Positions 56,051 to 64,000 are shown, counted from the stretch's first letter. The stretch: 64,000 bases of DNA from Escherichia coli (GCF_048403405.1 NZ_CP183129.1), one strand, 5' to 3'. Notes: a model not told the origin generated them from the sequence alone. Numbers and translations are program-made.

Positions 56051-57304
56051 ATGTTAAAGCGTGAAATGAACATTGCCGATTATGATGCCGAACTGTGGCA
56101 GGCTATGGAGCAGGAAAAAGTACGTCAGGAAGAGCACATCGAACTGATCGCCTCCGAAAACTACACCAGCCCGCGCGTAATGCAGGCGCAGGGTTCTCAG
56201 CTGACCAACAAATATGCTGAAGGTTATCCGGGCAAACGCTACTACGGCGGTTGCGAGTATGTTGATATCGTTGAACAACTGGCGATCGATCGTGCGAAAG
56301 AACTGTTCGGCGCTGACTACGCTAACGTCCAGCCGCACTCCGGCTCCCAGGCTAACTTTGCGGTGTACACCGCGCTGCTGGAACCAGGCGATACCGTTCT
56401 GGGTATGAACCTGGCGCATGGCGGTCACCTGACTCACGGTTCTCCGGTTAACTTCTCCGGTAAACTGTATAACATCGTTCCTTACGGTATCGATGCTACC
56501 GGTCATATCGACTACGCCGATCTGGAAAAACAAGCCAAAGAACACAAACCGAAAATGATTATCGGTGGCTTCTCTGCATATTCCGGCGTGGTGGACTGGG
56601 CGAAAATGCGTGAAATCGCTGACAGCATCGGTGCTTACCTGTTCGTTGATATGGCGCACGTTGCGGGCCTGGTTGCTGCTGGCGTTTACCCGAACCCAGT
56701 TCCTCATGCTCACGTTGTTACTACCACCACTCACAAAACCCTGGCGGGTCCGCGCGGTGGCCTGATCCTGGCGAAAGGTGGTAGCGAAGAGCTGTACAAA
56801 AAACTGAACTCTGCCGTTTTCCCTGGTGGTCAGGGCGGTCCGTTGATGCACGTAATCGCCGGTAAAGCGGTTGCTCTGAAAGAAGCGATGGAGCCTGAGT
56901 TCAAAACTTACCAGCAGCAGGTCGCGAAAAACGCCAAAGCGATGGTAGAAGTGTTCCTGGAACGCGGCTACAAAGTGGTTTCTGGTGGTACTGATAACCA
57001 CCTGTTCCTGGTTGATCTGGTTGATAAAAACCTGACTGGTAAAGAAGCTGACGCCGCTCTGGGCCGTGCTAACATCACCGTTAACAAAAACAGCGTACCG
57101 AACGATCCGAAGAGCCCGTTTGTGACCTCCGGTATTCGCGTGGGTACTCCGGCGATTACCCGTCGTAGCTTTAAAGAAGCCGAAGCGAAAGAACTGGCTG
57201 GCTGGATGTGTGACGTGCTGGACAGCATCAATGATGAAGCGGTTATTGAGCGCATCAAAGGTAAAGTTCTCGACATCTGTGCACGTTACCCGGTTTACGC
57301 ATAA
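56051..57304 (+). CDS. glyA: Serine hydroxymethyltransferase, 417 aa
   Basis: ORF track 56045..57304; ATG at 56051 ([12 protein letters not shown]); PLP-lysine motif TTTTHKTL. Confidence 0.96.
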
Positions 57305-57324
57305 GCGAAACGGTTAATCTGTTG

Positions 57325-57353
57325 AAAAAAGGCTTCCTTCGGGAAGCCTTTCT
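57325..57353. terminator. Bidirectional terminator between glyA and yphH (AAAAAAGGCTTCC-TTCG-GGAAGCCTTTCT)
   Basis: Inverted repeat flanked by A-run and T-run. Confidence 0.75.
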
Positions 57354-57367
57354 ACGTTATCGCGCCA

Positions 57368-58561
57368 TCAAATCTGTCGTAACTGCGCCTCAACATACAA
57401 ATAGCCAATCCCCAGCACCTGTTGTGCGCGGCTTAATTGCCCAAAGCCAATTTTCGTCTCTTTCACGCTCGGTCCTTCGTCGCGGTCGAACGGGTTAAAT
57501 CCCGTCTGGCGAATAATGGTATTAAGCCAGTGCTCACCAAAGGCACAACTGCGACCGTACAACCAAATCTGATTAATATTGAGGATGTTGAGGAAGTTAT
57601 ACAGACTCAAACCAATGGCATTGGCAGAGCGATCAACCCAGCTGGTGATCCACGGTTCTCCACTCTGCCAGGCAGCGATTAACTGCGCTGTTGTCAGTTT
57701 TTCAGGATCAAGCTGAGTATTAACCGGTTGTGATTTTAGCCATACCCGCGCCTGTTTTTTTAATGCGCTTAACGAGGCGACGGTTTCCAGGCAACCATAA
57801 CGTCCGCAGTCGCAGACGACGCCATCCGGATTAACGATGGTGTGACCAATCTGTCCGCTACCATACAAACAGCCGCGATAAATTTGCTCGTTAATCACGA
57901 ACGACGAGCCAATGCCGTAATCAACGTTGATCACGCAGAAATCCCGTTCCTGCGAATTATTTTGCCATTTCTCCGCCAGCGCCAGCATCACGCAGTCATT
58001 ATCGACCATCACCCGAATGCCGAGCTTCTCTTCCAGCAGATACTTTACCTCAACCGGCGTTGTCCACGGCGCTTGCGGCATGGTTTGCGACACGCCGGTC
58101 ACCGGATCAACCTGACCGTGGATTGCCAGCGCCAGGTTGATGGTACGGTCCGGCCACAATTTACGGTGGCGATGCCAGCATTTTTCGATTTCGGACAGCA
58201 GCGCCTGCGGCGTCGGTGCATCAATCTGTAAATACTCAAATTCACCTTTCGGACTTAAACAGGCGTTAGCGACCTGACACTCAATACTGGTGGGCGTCAC
58301 GTTCAGGCACAGCGTCCAGTCACCTTCCGGCGCAATCAGCCATGTACCGCTACTATGCCCGCGCGTCTGGCTTTCATCGTCGATATTCACCACCCGTTTT
58401 TCGCTTTCCAGTTCCTGCAAAATATTACTGACCGCCGGAATCGAAATTTGCGCCAGCCGGGCCAGGGTTGATTTATTGGCGCGCTTTTGCCGGTACAGCA
58501 GTTCCAGAATCACGCATTTGTTATGGTGGCGAATCTGTTGATTATTAATGCAGGCTCTCAT
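57368..58561 (-). CDS. yphH: ROK/NagC-family transcriptional regulator, 397 aa
   Basis: ORF track 57368..58567 minus; start moved to the internal Met (MRACINNQQIRHHNKCV); N-terminal HTH plus ROK sugar-kinase-like domain. Confidence 0.85.
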   Translation of the reverse strand: MRACINNQQIRHHNKCVILELLYRQKRANKSTLARLAQISIPAVSNILQELESEKRVVNIDDESQTRGHSSGTWLIAPEGDWTLCLNVTPTSIECQVANACLSPKGEFEYLQIDAPTPQALLSEIEKCWHRHRKLWPDRTINLALAIHGQVDPVTGVSQTMPQAPWTTPVEVKYLLEEKLGIRVMVDNDCVMLALAEKWQNNSQERDFCVINVDYGIGSSFVINEQIYRGCLYGSGQIGHTIVNPDGVVCDCGRYGCLETVASLSALKKQARVWLKSQPVNTQLDPEKLTTAQLIAAWQSGEPWITSWVDRSANAIGLSLYNFLNILNINQIWLYGRSCAFGEHWLNTIIRQTGFNPFDRDEGPSVKETKIGFGQLSRAQQVLGIGYLYVEAQLRQI

Positions 58562-58678
58562 CTTCACTAAACCTTGTTTAGTTAATTGCGTGATTATTCC
58601 GCGAAAACATTGCCAGATTGTTCAATACACTGCCACAAATCTTTTAATTCAGTATGTCTTGTTAATATTGAGGGCACC

Positions 58679-61600
58679 ATGACTCCAGTAAAAGTGTGGC
58701 AAGAGCGCGTTGAGATCCCGACCTATGAAACCGGGCCGCAGGATATACATCCCATGTTCCTGGAAAATCGCGTTTATCAGGGATCGTCCGGCGCGGTTTA
58801 TCCCTACGGCGTGACCGATACGCTGAGCGAGCAGAAAACCCTGAAATCCTGGCAGGCGGTGTGGCTGGAAAACGACTACATCAAAGTGATGATCCTGCCG
58901 GAACTGGGCGGTCGGGTGCATCGCGCGTGGGATAAAGTGAAACAGCGCGATTTTGTCTATCACAATGAAGTCATTAAACCGGCGCTGGTGGGGCTGCTGG
59001 GACCGTGGATCTCCGGCGGGATTGAGTTTAACTGGCCGCAACACCATCGCCCGACCACCTTTATGCCCGTTGATTTCACCCTCGAAGCCCATGAAGACGG
59101 CGCACAGACGGTGTGGGTAGGCGAAACGGAGCCGATGCATGGTTTACAGGTGATGACAGGTTTCACCCTGCGTCCTGACCGGGCGGCGCTGGAAATCGCC
59201 AGCCGCGTCTATAACGGCAACGCCACGCCGCGTCATTTCTTGTGGTGGGCCAACCCGGCAGTGAAAGGGGGTGAAGGGCATCAGAGCGTTTTCCCACCGG
59301 ATGTGACTGCGGTGTTTGATCACGGCAAACGGGCCGTCTCTGCTTTCCCCATCGCCACCGGCACTTACTACAAAGTGGACTACTCCGCTGGAGTGGACAT
59401 TTCTCGCTATAAAAATGTGCCTGTTCCAACCTCATATATGGCTGAAAAATCACAGTACGATTTTGTTGGCGCGTGGTGTCACGATGAAGATGGCGGTTTG
59501 CTGCACGTTGCCAACCACCATATTGCGCCAGGTAAAAAACAGTGGAGTTGGGGACACAGTGAATTTGGCCAGGCGTGGGATAAGAGTCTGACCGACAATA
59601 ACGGCCCGTATATCGAACTGATGACCGGTATTTTTGCCGATAACCAGCCTGATTTTACCTGGCTTGATGCGTACGAAGAGAAGCGTTTCGAGCAGTATTT
59701 CCTGCCTTATCATTCTCTGGGCATGGTGCAAAATGCCTCCCGCGATGCGGTGATAAAACTCCAGCGTAGTGAGCGGGGGATTGAGTGGGGGCTGTATGCC
59801 ATCTCTCCGTTGAAAGGATACCGTCTGGCGATCCGCGAAATCGGCAAATGCAACGCGTTACTCGATGATGCCGTGGCCCTGACACCAGCGACCGCCATCC
59901 AGGGCGTGTTGCACGGTATCAATCCTGACAGACTGACCATTGAACTCTCCGATGCCGACGGCAATATTGTACTGAGTTATCAGGAACATCAGCCGCAAGA
60001 GTTGCCGTTGCCGGACGTCGCCAAAGCGCCACTGGCAGCACAAGACATTACCAGTACAGATGAAGCCTGGTTTATCGGTCAGCATCTGGAGCAATATCAT
60101 CACGCCAGCCGTTCACCGTTCGATTACTACCTGCGCGGCGTGGCGCTGGATCCGCTGGATTATCGCTGTAACCTGGCGCTGGCGATGCTGGAATATAACC
60201 GCGCCGATTTCCCGCAAGCGGTGGCGTATGCCACTCAGGCGCTGAAACGCGCACATGCGCTGAACAAAAATCCGCAGTGCGGACAGGCGAGTTTGATTCG
60301 CGCCAGTGCTTACGAACGTCAGGGACAATATCAACAAGCCGAAGAGGATTTCTGGCGTGCGGTCTGGAGCGGCAACAGTAAAGCCGGAGGCTATTATGGT
60401 CTGGCACGACTGGCGGCGCGTAATGGTAACTTCGACGCGGGTCTGGATTTTTGCCAACAAAGTCTTCGCGCCTGCCCAACCAATCAGGAAGTGCTTTGCC
60501 TGCATAATCTGCTGCTGGTGTTAAGTGGTCGTCAGGACAACGCGCGTTTGCAGCGCGAGAAACTGCTGCGCGATTATCCGCTGAACGCCACTCTGTGGTG
60601 GCTGAACTGGTTCGATGGTCGTAGCGAATCAGCTCTCGCGCAGTGGCGCGGTCTGTGTCAGGGACGCGACGTTAACGCCCTGATGACCGCCGGGCAACTG
60701 ATTAACTGGGGAATGCCCACCCTGGCGGCAGAGATGCTGAACGCACTGGACTGCCAGCGCACGCTGCCGCTTTACCTGCAAGCCAGCTTGCTGCCGAAAG
60801 CCGAACGTGGCGAACTGGTCGCAAAAGCCATTGATGTCTTCCCGCAGTTTGTCCGTTTCCCGAATACGCTGGAAGAAGTGGCGGCGCTGGAGAGTATTGA
60901 AGAGTGCTGGTTTGCCCGTCATTTATTGGCCTGCTTCTACTACAACAAGCGTAGCTACGGCAAAGCCATTGCCTTATGGCAACGTTGCGTAGAGATGTCG
61001 CCGGAGTTTGCCGACGGCTGGCGCGGGTTAGCGATCCATGCGTGGAATAAGCAACACGATTATGAGCTGGCCGCGCGTTATCTTGATAATGCTTATCAGC
61101 TTGCGCCGCAGGATGCACGTCTGCTTTTCGAACGGGATTTGCTGGATAAGTTAAGTGGAGCCACACCGGAGAAACGACTGGCGCGTCTGGAAAATAATCT
61201 GGAAATTGCGCTGAAACGCGACGACATGACCGCAGAACTGCTCAATTTGTGGCATCTCACGGGTCAGGCAGACAAAGCGGCGGACATTCTCGCCACGCGC
61301 AAATTCCACCCGTGGGAAGGCGGGGAAGGGAAGATCACCAGTCAGTTTATCCTCAACCAGTTATTACGCGCCTGGCAGCATCTTGATGCCAGAGAGCCGC
61401 AGCAGGCCAGCGAACTGCTTCATGCCGCGCTGCATTATCCGGAGAATTTAAGCGAAGGCCGTTTACCGGGGCAAACTGATAACGACATCTGGTTCTGGCA
61501 GGCGATATGCGCCAACGCGCAGGGCGATGAAACTGAAGCGACGCGTTGTTTACGTCTGGCGGCGACTGGCGATCGCACCATTAACATTCACAGTTATTAC

Positions 61601-61960
61601 AACGATCAGCCGGTTGATTATCTCTTCTGGCAAGGAATGGCGCTGCGACTGCTGGGTGAACAGCAAACCGCACAGCAACTGTTTAGTGAAATGAAACAGT
61701 GGGCGCAAGAGATGGCGAAAACCAGTATTGAGGCGGATTTCTTTGCTGTTTCACAACCTGACCTGTTATCGCTGTATGGCGATTTACAACAGCAGCATAA
61801 AGAAAAATGCCTGATGGTGGCGATGCTGGCGTCCGCGGGACTCGGGGAGGTTGCGCACTATGAATCTGCTCGCGCTGAATTGACGGCGATTAATCCGGCC
61901 TGGCCGAAAGCGGCATTATTCACCACTGTGATGCCTTTTATTTTTAACCGCGTTCACTAA
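58679..61960 (+). CDS. yphG: Large uncharacterised protein YphG (N-terminal domain of unknown function plus TPR-like C-terminal repeats), about 1093 aa
   Basis: ORF track 58586..61960; start moved to ATG 58679 (MTPVKVWQERVEIPTY); translation. Confidence 0.85.
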   Translation: MTPVKVWQERVEIPTYETGPQDIHPMFLENRVYQGSSGAVYPYGVTDTLSEQKTLKSWQAVWLENDYIKVMILPELGGRVHRAWDKVKQRDFVYHNEVIKPALVGLLGPWISGGIEFNWPQHHRPTTFMPVDFTLEAHEDGAQTVWVGETEPMHGLQVMTGFTLRPDRAALEIASRVYNGNATPRHFLWWANPAVKGGEGHQSVFPPDVTAVFDHGKRAVSAFPIATGTYYKVDYSAGVDISRYKNVPVPTSYMAEKSQYDFVGAWCHDEDGGLLHVANHHIAPGKKQWSWGHSEFGQAWDKSLTDNNGPYIELMTGIFADNQPDFTWLDAYEEKRFEQYFLPYHSLGMVQNASRDAVIKLQRSERGIEWGLYAISPLKGYRLAIREIGKCNALLDDAVALTPATAIQGVLHGINPDRLTIELSDADGNIVLSYQEHQPQELPLPDVAKAPLAAQDITSTDEAWFIGQHLEQYHHASRSPFDYYLRGVALDPLDYRCNLALAMLEYNRADFPQAVAYATQALKRAHALNKNPQCGQASLIRASAYERQGQYQQAEEDFWRAVWSGNSKAGGYYGLARLAARNGNFDAGLDFCQQSLRACPTNQEVLCLHNLLLVLSGRQDNARLQREKLLRDYPLNATLWWLNWFDGRSESALAQWRGLCQGRDVNALMTAGQLINWGMPTLAAEMLNALDCQRTLPLYLQASLLPKAERGELVAKAIDVFPQFVRFPNTLEEVAALESIEECWFARHLLACFYYNKRSYGKAIALWQRCVEMSPEFADGWRGLAIHAWNKQHDYELAARYLDNAYQLAPQDARLLFERDLLDKLSGATPEKRLARLENNLEIALKRDDMTAELLNLWHLTGQADKAADILATRKFHPWEGGEGKITSQFILNQLLRAWQHLDAREPQQASELLHAALHYPENLSEGRLPGQTDNDIWFWQAICANAQGDETEATRCLRLAATGDRTINIHSYYNDQPVDYLFWQGMALRLLGEQQTAQQLFSEMKQWAQEMAKTSIEADFFAVSQPDLLSLYGDLQQQHKEKCLMVAMLASAGLGEVAHYESARAELTAINPAWPKAALFTTVMPFIFNRVH

Positions 61961-62056
61961 ACCCTATTAACTGTAATATTTGAGCGGCACGCGCTGCCGC
62001 TCATCACAAAATAATTAGAATAAGCCGTTGTAAATAAAAACCCTACAGGAGGCACT

Positions 62057-63040
62057 ATGCCTAAAAAAATGAGAACAACCCGTAATCTATTATTAATGGC
62101 TACGCTATTAGGTAGCGCTCTATTTGCCAGGGCAGCGGATAAAGAAATGACCATTGGTGCAATATACCTTGATACCCAGGGATATTACGCTGGCGTGCGT
62201 CAGGGCGTTCAGGATGCGGCAAAAGATTCTTCAGTACAGGTACAGTTAATTGAAACTAACGCCCAGGGCGATATTTCGAAAGAAAGTACTTTTGTAGATA
62301 CCCTCGTGGCGCGTAATGTCGATGCCATTATTTTATCGGCAGTATCTGAAAATGGCAGTAGCCGTACCGTTCGTCGCGCCAGTGAAGCGGGTATTCCGGT
62401 GATTTGCTACAACACCTGTATTAATCAAAAGGGTGTCGATAAATATGTCTCGGCATATCTGGTTGGTGACCCGCTGGAATTTGGTAAAAAACTGGGTAAC
62501 GCTGCCGCCGATTATTTTATTGCCAACAAAATTGACCAGCCGAAAATTGCCGTCATCAATTGCGAAGCCTTTGAAGTTTGTGTGCAACGACGTAAAGGGT
62601 TTGAAGAAGTATTAAAAGCCCGCGTTCCCGGCGCGCAAATTGTCGCTAATCAGGAAGGGACTGTTTTAGATAAAGCGATTTCCGTTGGTGAAAAACTAAT
62701 TATCTCCACGTCGGATCTCAACGCCATTATGGGGGAATCGGGCGGTGCGACACTCGGCGCGGTAAAAGCGGTACGTAATCAAAATCAGGCCGGAAAAATT
62801 GCTGTTTTCGGTTCGGATATGACCACTGAAATTGCTCAGGAGCTGGAAAACAATCAGGTGCTGAAAGCGGTGGTGGATATTTCCGGTAAGAAAATGGGCA
62901 ATGCTGTTTTCGCGCAAACTTTGAAGGTTATCAATAAACAAGCCGACGGTGAAAAAGTGATTCAGGTGCCAATCGATCTCTATACCAAAACGGAAGACGG
63001 TAAACAGTGGCTGGCAACGCACGTTGATGGTCTGCCCTAA
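62057..63040 (+). CDS. yphF: ABC transporter periplasmic sugar-binding protein (LacI/RbsB-type fold), 327 aa
   Basis: ORF 62057..63040; signal peptide MPKKMRTTRNLLLMATLLGSALFARA. Confidence 0.88.
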   Translation: MPKKMRTTRNLLLMATLLGSALFARAADKEMTIGAIYLDTQGYYAGVRQGVQDAAKDSSVQVQLIETNAQGDISKESTFVDTLVARNVDAIILSAVSENGSSRTVRRASEAGIPVICYNTCINQKGVDKYVSAYLVGDPLEFGKKLGNAAADYFIANKIDQPKIAVINCEAFEVCVQRRKGFEEVLKARVPGAQIVANQEGTVLDKAISVGEKLIISTSDLNAIMGESGGATLGAVKAVRNQNQAGKIAVFGSDMTTEIAQELENNQVLKAVVDISGKKMGNAVFAQTLKVINKQADGEKVIQVPIDLYTKTEDGKQWLATHVDGLP

Positions 63041-63062
63041 TCGCTGATTCGCAGAGGTCCCT

Positions 63063-64000
63063 ATGTTCACGGCAACAGAGGCAGTCCCGGTAGCAAAAGT
63101 GGTGGCAGGAAATAAGCGTTATCCCGGCGTCGTTGCGTTGGATAACGTTAACTTCACGCTCAATAAAGGCGAAGTTCGTGCGCTGTTAGGCAAAAACGGC
63201 GCGGGCAAATCGACCCTCATTCGAATGCTTACCGGCAGTGAACGTCCGGATAGCGGTGATATCTGGATTGGCGAGACGCGACTGGAAGGTGACGAAGCTA
63301 CGTTGACTCGCCGTGCCGCTGAACTGGGGGTTCGTGCGGTTTATCAGGAGTTAAGTCTGGTGGAGGGACTGACGGTGGCGGAAAACCTCTGCCTCGGTCA
63401 GTGGCCCCGCCGCAACGGCATGATTGATTACCTGCAAATGGCGCAGGATGCCCAACGTTGCTTACAGGCGCTGGGCGTTGACGTTAGCCCTGAACAACTT
63501 GTTTCAACGCTAAGCCCGGCACAAAAGCAACTGGTGGAAATTGCGCGGGTGATGAAGGGCGAGCCGCGCGTGGTCATTCTTGATGAACCTACCAGTTCGC
63601 TTGCCAGTGCGGAAGTTGAACTGGTGATCAGTGCGGTTAAAAAGATGTCGGCACTGGGCGTGGCGGTGATTTATGTCAGCCACCGGATGGAAGAAATCCG
63701 CCGCATTGCCTCCTGTGCCACCGTTATGCGCGATGGTCAGGTGGCGGGCGATGTGATGCTCGAAAACACCTCCACGCATCATATTGTGTCGCTAATGCTC
63801 GGGCGCGATCACGTTGATATTGCGCCGGTTGCCCCTCAGGAAATTGTCGATCAGGCTGTGCTGGTAGTCCGTGCGTTACGCCATAAGCCCAAGCTGGAGG
63901 ATATCAGCTTTACGCTACGTCGTGGCGAAGTACTCGGCATTGCTGGCCTGCTGGGGGCAGGGCGCAGTGAATTGCTGAAGGCGATTGTTGGGCTGGAGAC
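63063..64000 (+). CDS. yphE: ABC transporter ATP-binding protein (sugar importer type), N-terminal part; continues beyond window end
   Basis: ATG 63063 (MFTATEAVPVAKVV); Walker A GKNGAGKST; frame open to the window edge, so absent from the ORF track. Confidence 0.85.
   Translation, partial: MFTATEAVPVAKVVAGNKRYPGVVALDNVNFTLNKGEVRALLGKNGAGKSTLIRMLTGSERPDSGDIWIGETRLEGDEATLTRRAAELGVRAVYQELSLVEGLTVAENLCLGQWPRRNGMIDYLQMAQDAQRCLQALGVDVSPEQLVSTLSPAQKQLVEIARVMKGEPRVVILDEPTSSLASAEVELVISAVKKMSALGVAVIYVSHRMEEIRRIASCATVMRDGQVAGDVMLENTSTHHIVSLMLGRDHVDIAPVAPQEIVDQAVLVVRALRHKPKLEDISFTLRRGEVLGIAGLLGAGRSELLKAIVGLE

What the first reader, a model, noticed from the sequence alone, without database searches (positions are those of the whole stretch)
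57368..64000. Poorly characterised yphH-yphG-yphFE cluster: ROK regulator, 1093-aa TPR-like protein and ABC sugar-type importer
The right edge carries a divergent ROK/NagC-type regulator (yphH), a very large protein of unknown function with TPR-like C-terminal repeats (yphG), and the first two genes of an ABC importer (yphF, yphE). The substrate and physiological role of this cluster are, to my knowledge, not established. If anything in this window is functionally undescribed it is here, although the genes themselves are already annotated in reference genomes.
Basis: inference. Interest (0 to 1): 0.4.

Follow-up and report, generated by a model that had tools for sequence, protein, structure and literature searches.

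The report
Uncharacterised E. coli yph sugar operon
The right edge of the window holds part of an E. coli sugar-uptake operon whose giant protein YphG has a sugar-mutarotase-like domain fused to a long helical repeat; it is widespread, tied to sugar transporters and galactosidases, and has no reported function.

Summary
Window 57368-64000 carries yphH (ROK regulator, minus strand), yphG (1093 aa), yphF (periplasmic CUT2 sugar-binding protein) and the first 312 codons of yphE. The operon continues beyond the window with yphD, yphC and yphB. The locus is in 5404 of 5426 complete E. coli genomes. I found no paper that assigns a substrate or function.

New here:
- His123, His215 and Glu313 are conserved family-wide, like the mutarotase catalytic set.
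- The family has thousands of members. The N-terminal domain is 54-58% identical between E. coli and Bacteroidota or Bacillota.
- In 86 loci the usual neighbours are a monosaccharide transporter, aldose 1-epimerases and alpha/beta-galactosidases.

Best reading: a YphH-controlled operon in which cytoplasmic YphG acts at the anomeric centre of a free, probably galacto-configured, sugar. The reaction itself is inferred, not shown.

I also found a conserved 23-nt motif at both ends of yphG. These two copies are candidate YphH operators.

The parts
57368..58561 (-). yphH, a ROK-family transcription regulator (397 aa), transcribed divergently from yphG
   Evidence: One search gives the ORF and the RefSeq annotation. 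PF00480 ROK at 113 bits, with a weak N-terminal winged-helix match (MarR, 21 bits). The translation contains the ROK zinc motif GHTIVNPDGVVCDCGRYGCLE; well below the NagC and Mlc equivalog cut-offs (110 vs 650 bits; 107 vs 530 bits).
58562..58678 (.). yphH-yphG divergent control region (117 bp). It holds a 23-nt near-palindrome TTCACTAAACcttGTTTAGTTAA at 58563-58585 that abuts the yphH start, and an invariant TGCGTGA at 58587-58593.
   Evidence: One search found the inverted repeat. One search aligned 14 orthologous intergenic regions from Enterobacterales and Aeromonas: TGCGTGA is invariant and the ACTAAAC-N3-GTTWAST block is conserved. One search found no consensus sigma-70 promoter here. 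The operator role is inferred.
58679..61960 (+). yphG (1093 aa), a cytoplasmic DUF5107-TPR protein
   Evidence: AF2 model with pLDDT 94.6 and pTM 0.93. No signal peptide.
58679..59728 (+). YphG residues 1-350: the DUF5107 domain, with a galactose-mutarotase beta-sandwich fold. Conserved H122/H123/R124, H215, N246, K286/K287, W291, D306, E313 and D321-D325.
59741..59983 (+). YphG residues 355-435: a second, small all-beta domain that is poorly conserved
   Evidence: secondary structure. (mean column identity 0.33).
60056..61957 (+). YphG residues 460-1093: a TPR solenoid of about 35 helices. Few invariant residues: W563, R782, and F876/E880 in the loop FHPWEGGEG.
   Evidence: TPR_16 62 bits, TPR_14, TPR_2 and TPR_1 above cut-offs. 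(matches to OGT, SPINDLY, CDC27, RapI, MamA and PilF; none to alpha/alpha-barrel glycosidases)..
61953..61975 (+). Second copy of the 23-nt motif (TTCACTAAACcctATTAACTGTA). It overlaps the yphG stop codon, 82 nt upstream of yphF.
   Evidence: the pattern matches only at these two sites in 64 kb, with 0.00 expected; the second copy is conserved in four other ABC-variant loci (E. albertii, Enterobacter BIGb0383, K. pasteurii, Budvicia diplopodorum).
61981..62003 (+). GC-rich hairpin (TGAGCGGCA-N5-TGCCGCTCA) between yphG and yphF, with no T-run after it
   Evidence: Conserved in the ABC-variant loci. Its function is not tested.
62057..63040 (+). yphF, the periplasmic substrate-binding protein of a CUT2-type sugar ABC importer. 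It has a Sec signal peptide (MPKKMRTTRNLLLMATLLGSALFARA).
   Evidence: Peripla_BP_4, 114 bits; below every equivalog cut-off (allose, galactose, AI-2, ribose, galactofuranose, xylose); best solved relative is 5hsg at E 3e-23, with no ligand information.
63063..64000 (+). yphE, the fused double ATPase of the importer. Only the first 312 of 503 codons lie in the window.
   Evidence: translation, Walker A GKNGAGKST. (two ABC_tran domains in the full protein). (nearest AraG and XylG, below cut-offs).

Best explanation
The region is the 5' half of the core E. coli locus yphH / yphGFEDCB, an inducible sugar-uptake and sugar-processing operon.

Shown:
- YphH is a ROK-family regulator with the zinc motif, transcribed divergently.
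- YphFED is a CUT2 (monosaccharide-type) ABC importer.
- YphC is a polyol-dehydrogenase-like Zn-ADH, and YphB is a canonical aldose 1-epimerase.
- YphG is a cytoplasmic three-part protein: a galactose-mutarotase-fold domain (DUF5107), a small beta domain and a roughly 630-residue TPR solenoid.

Inferred:
- YphG binds a free reducing monosaccharide delivered by the transporter, or released inside the cell by galactosidases. The sugar is most probably D-galactose or another galacto-configured sugar.
- YphG performs ring-opening (anomeric-centre) acid/base chemistry with the conserved His123/His215/Glu313 set. The outcome would be an anomer or ring-form interconversion, or an isomerisation built on that step.
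- YphB equilibrates the pyranose anomers. In the ABC variant of the operon, YphC adds a redox step.
- The TPR solenoid packs against the catalytic domain, as in crystal structure 5cd6. It probably provides oligomerisation or a docking surface, not catalysis.
- YphH probably represses the operon and itself through the 23-nt motif found at both ends of yphG, and is released by the sugar.
For: - Gene identities and domains.
- Catalytic set: E313 is invariant and H123 and H215 are at least 90% conserved in 70-77 sequences. All three are kept in the distant 5cd6 (alignment). Measured from the N-terminal 'L-x-N' strand, H215, N246 and E313 fall at +151, +182 and +249; the mutarotase His, Asp and Glu in YphB fall at +142, +181 and +247.
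- Conservation is concentrated in the N-terminal domain: 70 near-invariant positions, against 26 in the other 743 residues.
- Family size: 3914 50%-identity clusters at E<=1e-3; more than 600 genomic stretches, with 54-58% identity across phyla.
- Context in 86 loci (annotated): sugar-porter MFS in 52, usually adjacent on the same strand; any sugar transporter in 68; an aldose 1-epimerase-type protein in 27; a GH2_20, GH35, GH36 or GH97 galactosidase-type enzyme in 50.
- GH2_20 members are beta-galactosidases (PMC12243196; links the neighbours to 8u01).
- Compartment logic: the glycosidases carry signal peptides in Bacteroidota but not in Bacillota, Citrobacter or Photobacterium, whereas YphG-like proteins never do. 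In every layout the monosaccharide meets YphG in the cytoplasm.
- Transporter swap: Klebsiella species carry either the ABC+ADH or the MFS version at the same chromosomal site.
- Regulatory motif.
Against: - No biochemical, genetic or ligand data exist for any family member.
- The catalytic-residue equivalence rests on spacing and conservation, not on a structural superposition.
- The mutarotase Asp is Asn in YphG, and the Arg/first-His region is rearranged.
- A separate canonical mutarotase in the same operon makes a plain mutarotase role redundant, so the real reaction must differ and is unknown.
- The galactose inference comes mostly from Bacteroidota and Bacillota loci. In E. coli the neighbours are only a transporter, an ADH and an epimerase.
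- TPR solenoids usually mediate protein-protein contacts, which fits a non-enzymatic role equally well.
- More distant family members carry signal peptides and sit in uninformative contexts.
Confidence: 0.45

Rival explanations
1. YphG is a glycoside hydrolase, phosphorylase or lyase that cleaves a small imported glycoside or disaccharide in the cytoplasm. The module regulator + transporter + YphG + mutarotase would then work like lacI-lacZ-lacY plus galM.
For: - The minimal conserved module (regulator, transporter, YphG, with or without mutarotase) needs only one enzyme if the products are common sugars.
- Mutarotases typically accompany glycosidases.
- Beta-sandwich-only catalytic domains of this fold class exist (GH174 fucanase, PL26, PL4, OpgG appear).
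- Some Bacillota loci use oligosaccharide-type CUT1 ABC systems.
- Distant family members are secreted.
- YphC resembles polyol dehydrogenases and could oxidise a polyol aglycone.
Against: - The dominant transporter is a sugar-porter MFS nearest XylE, and E. coli uses a CUT2 system. Both types are typical of monosaccharides.
- The conserved core is His/His/Glu, not a pair of carboxylates.
- The CUT1 loci also encode cytoplasmic GH2_20, GH35 or GH36 enzymes that would already release the monosaccharide.
Confidence: 0.25
2. YphG is not an enzyme. It would be a cytoplasmic sugar sensor or scaffold: the mutarotase-like domain binds the sugar, and the TPR solenoid docks onto the transporter, the regulator or other enzymes to control uptake or induction.
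For: - More than half of the protein is a genuine TPR solenoid, whose closest structural relatives are protein- or peptide-binding TPRs (CDC27, SPINDLY, RapI, YrrB, MamA, PilF).
- The gene is almost always directly next to the transporter gene.
- ROK regulators can be controlled by partner proteins. Mlc is sequestered by PtsG (established knowledge).
- A canonical mutarotase is already present in the operon.
Against: - The regulator class varies (AraC in 47 loci, ROK in 15, also LacI-like and two-component) while YphG stays highly conserved. This argues against a dedicated regulator partner.
- The transporter class also varies (MFS, CUT2, CUT1, GPH).
- 54-58% identity across phyla, and 70 near-invariant polar and aromatic residues in the beta domain, are typical of an active site.
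- Secreted homologues cannot be cytoplasmic sensors.
Confidence: 0.2
3. The cluster already has a defined substrate and function in literature that I could not reach, so the finding is simply known biology.
For: The searchable library lacks most subscription-journal papers and does not search supplementary tables (tool description). High-throughput fitness or ligand screens may contain relevant data.
Against: - Nine full-text searches found no functional statement.
- RefSeq still names the proteins generically.
- NCBIfam 2026 has no equivalog model for any of the seven proteins.
- The only solved homologue, 5cd6, is an unpublished structural-genomics entry.
- A 2022 survey still lists YphH as a regulator of unknown function.
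Confidence: 0.08

Closest known systems
Aldose 1-epimerase / galactose mutarotase family (GalM, YeaD, YihR, YphB; Pfam PF01263)
   Different: No sequence-level match to PF01263 or to a YphB profile. YphG has an N-terminal extension of about 57 residues. The Asp is replaced by Asn, and extra invariant residues are present (K286/K287, D306, D321-D325). YphG is fused to a second beta domain and a 630-residue TPR solenoid, and it co-occurs with a canonical mutarotase, so it is not simply redundant.
BDI_1685 of Parabacteroides distasonis (PDB 5cd6), a DUF5107 + TPR protein from structural genomics
   Different: It is only 575-580 residues, with about a third of the TPR region. Identity is 21-24%. 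H122, R124 and K286 are not conserved. It has no publication or known function, so it gives no functional transfer.
lac-type minimal catabolic modules (regulator + permease + one enzyme, with GalM acting downstream)
   Same: The gene logic is the same: a divergent regulator, one transporter, one large cytoplasmic enzyme-like protein and a mutarotase.
   Different: The large protein is not a member of any glycoside hydrolase family. The transporters are of monosaccharide type. No substrate is known.
NagC/Mlc ROK repressors
   Same: YphH has the ROK domain, the zinc motif and an N-terminal winged helix. A roughly 23-bp near-palindromic candidate operator overlaps its own 5' region.
   Different: Far below the NagC and Mlc equivalog scores. 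It lacks the conserved GR linker motif, according to PMC4288165. The candidate operator sequence (TTCACTAAAC-N3-GTTTAGTTAA, TGCGTGA) is unrelated to NagC/Mlc boxes as I recall them (from memory, not tested).

Membership tests
DUF5107 (Pfam PF17128) | Match to the family HMM above the gathering score | tested here: met
   188.9 bits against a cut-off of 24.4, E 1.4e-55, residues 39-324.
TPR repeat proteins | Pfam TPR models above gathering score, and a helical-repeat solenoid structure | tested here: met
   TPR_16 62.4 (cut-off 32.7), TPR_14 43.6 (23.5), TPR_2 40.9 (27), TPR_1 37.9 (27.8); about 35 paired helices, with structural matches to OGT, CDC27, SPINDLY and designed CTPR proteins.
Aldose 1-epimerase (PF01263) | Galactose-mutarotase beta-sandwich fold | tested here: met
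Aldose 1-epimerase (PF01263) | Sequence match to the family profile | tested here: not met
   no PF01263 hit for YphG; hhalign to YphB or to a 24-sequence epimerase profile aligns only residues 61-102 (E 0.07).
Aldose 1-epimerase (PF01263) | Catalytic Arg/His/His/Asp/Glu set (YphB R56, H83, H148, D187, E253) | tested here: inconclusive
   H123, H215 and E313 are conserved, with H215, N246 and E313 at matching spacing. The Asp position is Asn246. The Arg and first-His equivalence is uncertain. No structural superposition was possible.
Aldose 1-epimerase (PF01263) | Mutarotase activity on a free aldose | not testable with these tools
   Needs polarimetry or NMR exchange assays with purified protein.
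Glycoside hydrolases / polysaccharide lyases with (alpha/alpha)n toroid plus beta-sandwich (GH15, GH65, GH94, PL8, PL15, PL17) | Helical domain forms an alpha/alpha barrel or toroid that carries the catalytic residues | tested here: not met
ROK family regulators (YphH) | ROK domain HMM match, the zinc motif GHx9-11CxCGxxGCxE, and an N-terminal DNA-binding domain | tested here: met
   PF00480 at 113 bits; MarR/HTH_24-type winged helix weak (21 and 17 bits, below cut-offs). GHTIVNPDGVVCDCGRYGCLE.
NagC or Mlc (equivalogs) | Score above the NCBIfam equivalog cut-off | tested here: not met
   110 vs 650 bits (NagC) and 107 vs 530 bits (Mlc).
CUT2 sugar ABC importers (YphFED) | Peripla_BP_4 binding protein with signal peptide, fused double ABC ATPase, and a BPD_transp_2 permease | tested here: met
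Known-substrate CUT2 systems (Ara, Xyl, Rbs, Als, Mgl, Ytf, Lsr) | Equivalog-level score of the binding protein | tested here: not met
   the best YphF scores are 59.8 vs 335 bits (allose), 59 vs 420 (MglB) and 44.5 vs 510 (YtfQ).

The most novel reading that the evidence does not exclude
YphG founds an undescribed class of cytoplasmic sugar-converting enzymes: a mutarotase-fold catalytic domain held by a TPR solenoid. It would carry out a so far unrecognised step on galacto-configured monosaccharides, for example furanose-to-pyranose conversion or an epimerisation or isomerisation that proceeds through the open-chain form. That step would be shared by galactoside-utilisation loci of Bacteroidota, Bacillota and Enterobacterales.
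Probability: 0.25. Interest if true: 0.7.

Novelty: new variant of a known kind. Interest (0 to 1): 0.45.

Why it matters
E. coli is the best-studied bacterium, yet this core operon has no known substrate. Its largest protein belongs to a family with thousands of members. The N-terminal domain is unusually well conserved across phyla and sits in polysaccharide-utilisation loci of gut, soil and marine bacteria.

If YphG catalyses a new conversion of a common sugar, it would fill a gap in models of galactoside and plant or algal glycan catabolism. It would also give a function to DUF5107 and to the orphan structure 5cd6. The work here turns 'unknown' into concrete tests: a short list of candidate sugars, three candidate catalytic residues and two candidate operator sites.

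Tried and rejected
1. Sequence-profile link between YphG and canonical mutarotases. hhalign of the 70-sequence family alignment against YphB, and of the N-terminal alignment against a 24-sequence epimerase profile in local and global modes, aligned only the first strand. The residue mapping therefore rests on spacing and conservation.
3. AlphaFold-database fold search. The library was unavailable.
4. Contexts of signal-peptide-bearing distant homologues. No carbohydrate theme emerged, so they were uninformative.
5. A CRP site at the invariant TGCGTGA. The right half-site does not fit the consensus, judged by reading the alignment. Rejected.
6. Consensus sigma-70 promoter scan of the intergenic region. 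No hit.
7. Levoglucosan as substrate. YphF rises along with XylF, MalE, MglA, YtfQ and UgpB, which is a general relief of catabolite repression and not specific induction. Not adopted.
8. Literature searches by gene names, b-number, PDB codes and the Pfam accession gave no functional data.


Full report
**What is there.** The ORF list, a megablast against 5,426 complete E. coli genomes and the RefSeq annotation of a 100%-identical record agree on four genes:
- yphH at 57368-58561 on the minus strand
- yphG at 58679-61960
- yphF at 62057-63040
- yphE from 63063, cut by the window end after 312 of 503 codons

Upstream lies glyA. Beyond the window the operon continues with yphD (permease), yphC (Zn-dependent dehydrogenase) and yphB (aldose 1-epimerase), followed by convergent yphA and the hca genes. 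The region is present at 80% coverage or more in 5404 of 5426 genomes, so it is core E. coli DNA. The 1093-aa start is supported because that ATG aligns in 14 orthologous loci, while the sequence upstream behaves as non-coding.

**The ordinary parts.**
- YphH matches the ROK family (113 bits) and carries the ROK zinc motif GHx11CxCGxxGCxE. It scores far below the NagC and Mlc equivalog thresholds.
- YphF has a Sec signal peptide and a Peripla_BP_4 fold. YphE is a fused double ATPase and YphD a BPD_transp_2 permease. Together they form a CUT2-type, monosaccharide-class importer.
- None of these proteins reaches the curated cut-off of any system with a known substrate.
- YphC groups with xylitol, sorbitol and threonine dehydrogenases.
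- YphB is the solved but uncharacterised mutarotase 3nre.

**YphG structure.** Pfam sees DUF5107 (residues 39-324, E 1.4e-55) and several TPR families. I collected homologues, aligned 70 full-length sequences and obtained a model with mean pLDDT 94.6 and pTM 0.93. A separate model of residues 1-450 reached pLDDT 94.9. The protein has three parts:
- a beta-sandwich, residues 1-350
- a small beta domain, residues 355-435
- about 35 helices, residues 460-1093

**Candidate active site.** Conservation is concentrated in the N-terminal domain: 70 of 350 positions are at least 90% conserved, against 26 in the remaining 743. E313 is invariant, and H122, H123, R124, H215, K286, K287, W291, D306 and D321-D325 are nearly so. 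H123, H215, K287, W291, E313 and D321 persist even in 5cd6 at 21-24% identity.

In canonical epimerases from these same loci the invariant residues are R56, H83, H148, D187 and E253 in YphB numbering. Counted from the N-terminal 'L-x-N' strand, the only segment hhalign aligns, H148, D187 and E253 fall at +142, +181 and +247. YphG H215, N246 and E313 fall at +151, +182 and +249. I therefore infer that the mutarotase acid/base pair is retained. I could not superpose coordinates, so this remains an inference.

**Family size and spread.** The N-terminal 470 residues find 3914 clusters (50% identity) at E<=1e-3, and 884 at E<=1e-30. Most are about 1100 residues long. The best 80 span Enterobacterales, Aeromonas, Photobacterium, many Bacteroidota and Bacillota, at 54-58% identity in this domain. 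The close relatives have no signal peptide. More distant ones, at about 35-38% identity, do.

**Genomic context.** I called ORFs in all loci, clustered them by BLASTP and annotated cluster representatives. Among 86 non-redundant loci, within five genes of the YphG homologue:

| Neighbour | Loci |
|---|---|
| Sugar-porter MFS transporter, nearest XylE, usually adjacent on the same strand | 52 |
| Any sugar transporter | 68 |
| AraC regulator | 47 |
| ROK regulator | 15 |
| Aldose 1-epimerase-type protein | 27 |
| GH2_20 | 35 |
| GH35 | 8 |
| GH36 | 8 |
| GH97 | 5 |
| At least one of those four GH families | 50 |

- The GH2 neighbours are close to PDB 8u01. They belong to subfamily GH2_20, described as beta-galactosidases acting on decorated substrates (PMC12243196).
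- In Bacteroidota these glycosidases carry signal peptides. In Bacillota, Citrobacter and Photobacterium they do not. In each layout a monosaccharide reaches the cytoplasm, where YphG sits.
- In Enterobacterales and Aeromonas the core is ROK | YphG | transporter | YphB-type epimerase.
- Klebsiella pasteurii carries the ABC + ADH version and K. oxytoca the MFS version at the same glyA-DoxX site.

**Interpretation.** The transporter class and the regulator class are both interchangeable, whereas YphG and, often, a mutarotase stay. This argues that YphG handles the transported sugar itself, not a particular regulator or transporter protein. The fold and the conserved His/His/Glu point to chemistry at the anomeric centre of a free sugar. 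The galactosidase neighbourhood points to D-galactose or a similarly configured sugar. The presence of a canonical mutarotase means the reaction is probably not plain alpha/beta pyranose interconversion.

I put 0.45 on this enzyme reading, 0.25 on a hydrolase-type role on a small glycoside, and 0.2 on a non-catalytic sensor or scaffold role suggested by the TPR solenoid. I put about 0.08 on a function already published somewhere I could not search.

**Regulatory elements.**
- The 117-bp yphH-yphG spacer has a 23-nt near-palindrome, TTCACTAAACcttGTTTAGTTAA (58563-58585), abutting the yphH start.
- An invariant TGCGTGA (58587-58593) and a conserved ACTAAAC-N3-GTTWAST block appear across 14 loci from Enterobacterales and Aeromonas.
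- The same 23-nt pattern occurs once more in the 64-kb window, at 61953-61975. It overlaps the yphG stop codon upstream of yphF (0.00 expected by chance; the pattern was derived from these sites, so the test is post hoc).
- The second copy is conserved in four other ABC-variant loci and is followed by a conserved GC hairpin without a T-run.

I read the two copies as candidate YphH operators, and the second as marking a possible internal control point for yphFEDCB. This is inference only.

**Literature.** Nine full-text searches returned no functional assignment:
- yphF is one of many sugar-binding proteins up-regulated on levoglucosan.
- yphF appears in a uropathogen ABC-transporter screen.
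- yphG is a Klebsiella PCR marker.
- YphH is listed as uncharacterised.
- YphB is used only as a structural template.
- DUF5107 appears once, as an orthogroup enriched in phagotrophic stramenopiles.

**Verdict.** The cluster is an ordinary type of system, a regulated sugar-uptake and sugar-processing operon. It contains one unusual, widespread and unstudied component. It is not a new kind of genetic element, but it is a well-defined open question with specific, cheap experiments.

Noticed in passing
window 61953-61975 and 58563-58585: The 23-nt motif TTCACTAAACNNNNTTWASTNWA occurs only at these two places in the 64-kb window, one at each end of yphG. The second copy overlaps the yphG stop codon and is conserved in other loci that carry the ABC-type operon.
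   Followed up: partly
window 62040-62050; L002, L016, L020 upstream of the MFS gene: The short sequence CCCTACA(A/G) sits just 5' of the ribosome-binding site of the transporter gene, both in the ABC variant (before yphF) and in the MFS variant (Aeromonas, Hafnia, Enterobacter Ag1). The downstream genes are unrelated. Unexplained.
   Followed up: no
L004 (K. oxytoca) vs L009 (K. pasteurii), both at the glyA-DoxX site: Two alternative operon versions occupy the same chromosomal site within one genus. One is YphG + CUT2 ABC + Zn-ADH + epimerase (YphG 75% identical to E. coli). The other is YphG + MFS + epimerase (55% identical). This looks like cassette replacement.
   Followed up: partly
window 57000-64000: This stretch is at least 99% identical to only 6 of 5425 E. 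coli genomes and 95-99% identical to nearly all the others. The source strain therefore belongs to an uncommon lineage.
   Followed up: no
window 57328-57351: A perfect 10-bp inverted repeat (AAAGGCTTCC-N4-GGAAGCCTTT) lies between the convergent glyA and yphH genes. It is probably a bidirectional terminator.
   Followed up: no
proteins P0211, P0236, P0240, P0245, P0246, P0262, P0267, P0243; loci L091, L092: More distant DUF5107-TPR proteins (about 35-38% identity) carry clear signal peptides, so the family has secreted or periplasmic branches as well as the cytoplasmic YphG branch. Their gene neighbourhoods gave no clue.
   Followed up: partly
L042, L046, L049, L053, L055, L071, L074, L085 (marine Flavobacteriia): A recurrent gene order, GH30 - sulfatase - MFS - GDSL esterase - GH2_20 - DUF5107 - sulfatase(s) - GH2_20, suggests a locus for a sulfated, acetylated galactan-like polysaccharide with YphG-like processing of the released sugar.
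   Followed up: no
L034, L037, L040, L061, L026 (Paenibacillus, Ruminiclostridium): Here the YphG homologue is followed by a different small mutarotase-like protein (weak DUF4432 and Aldose_epim matches) in place of a YphB- or GalM-type epimerase, often with a GH36 alpha-galactosidase nearby.
   Followed up: no
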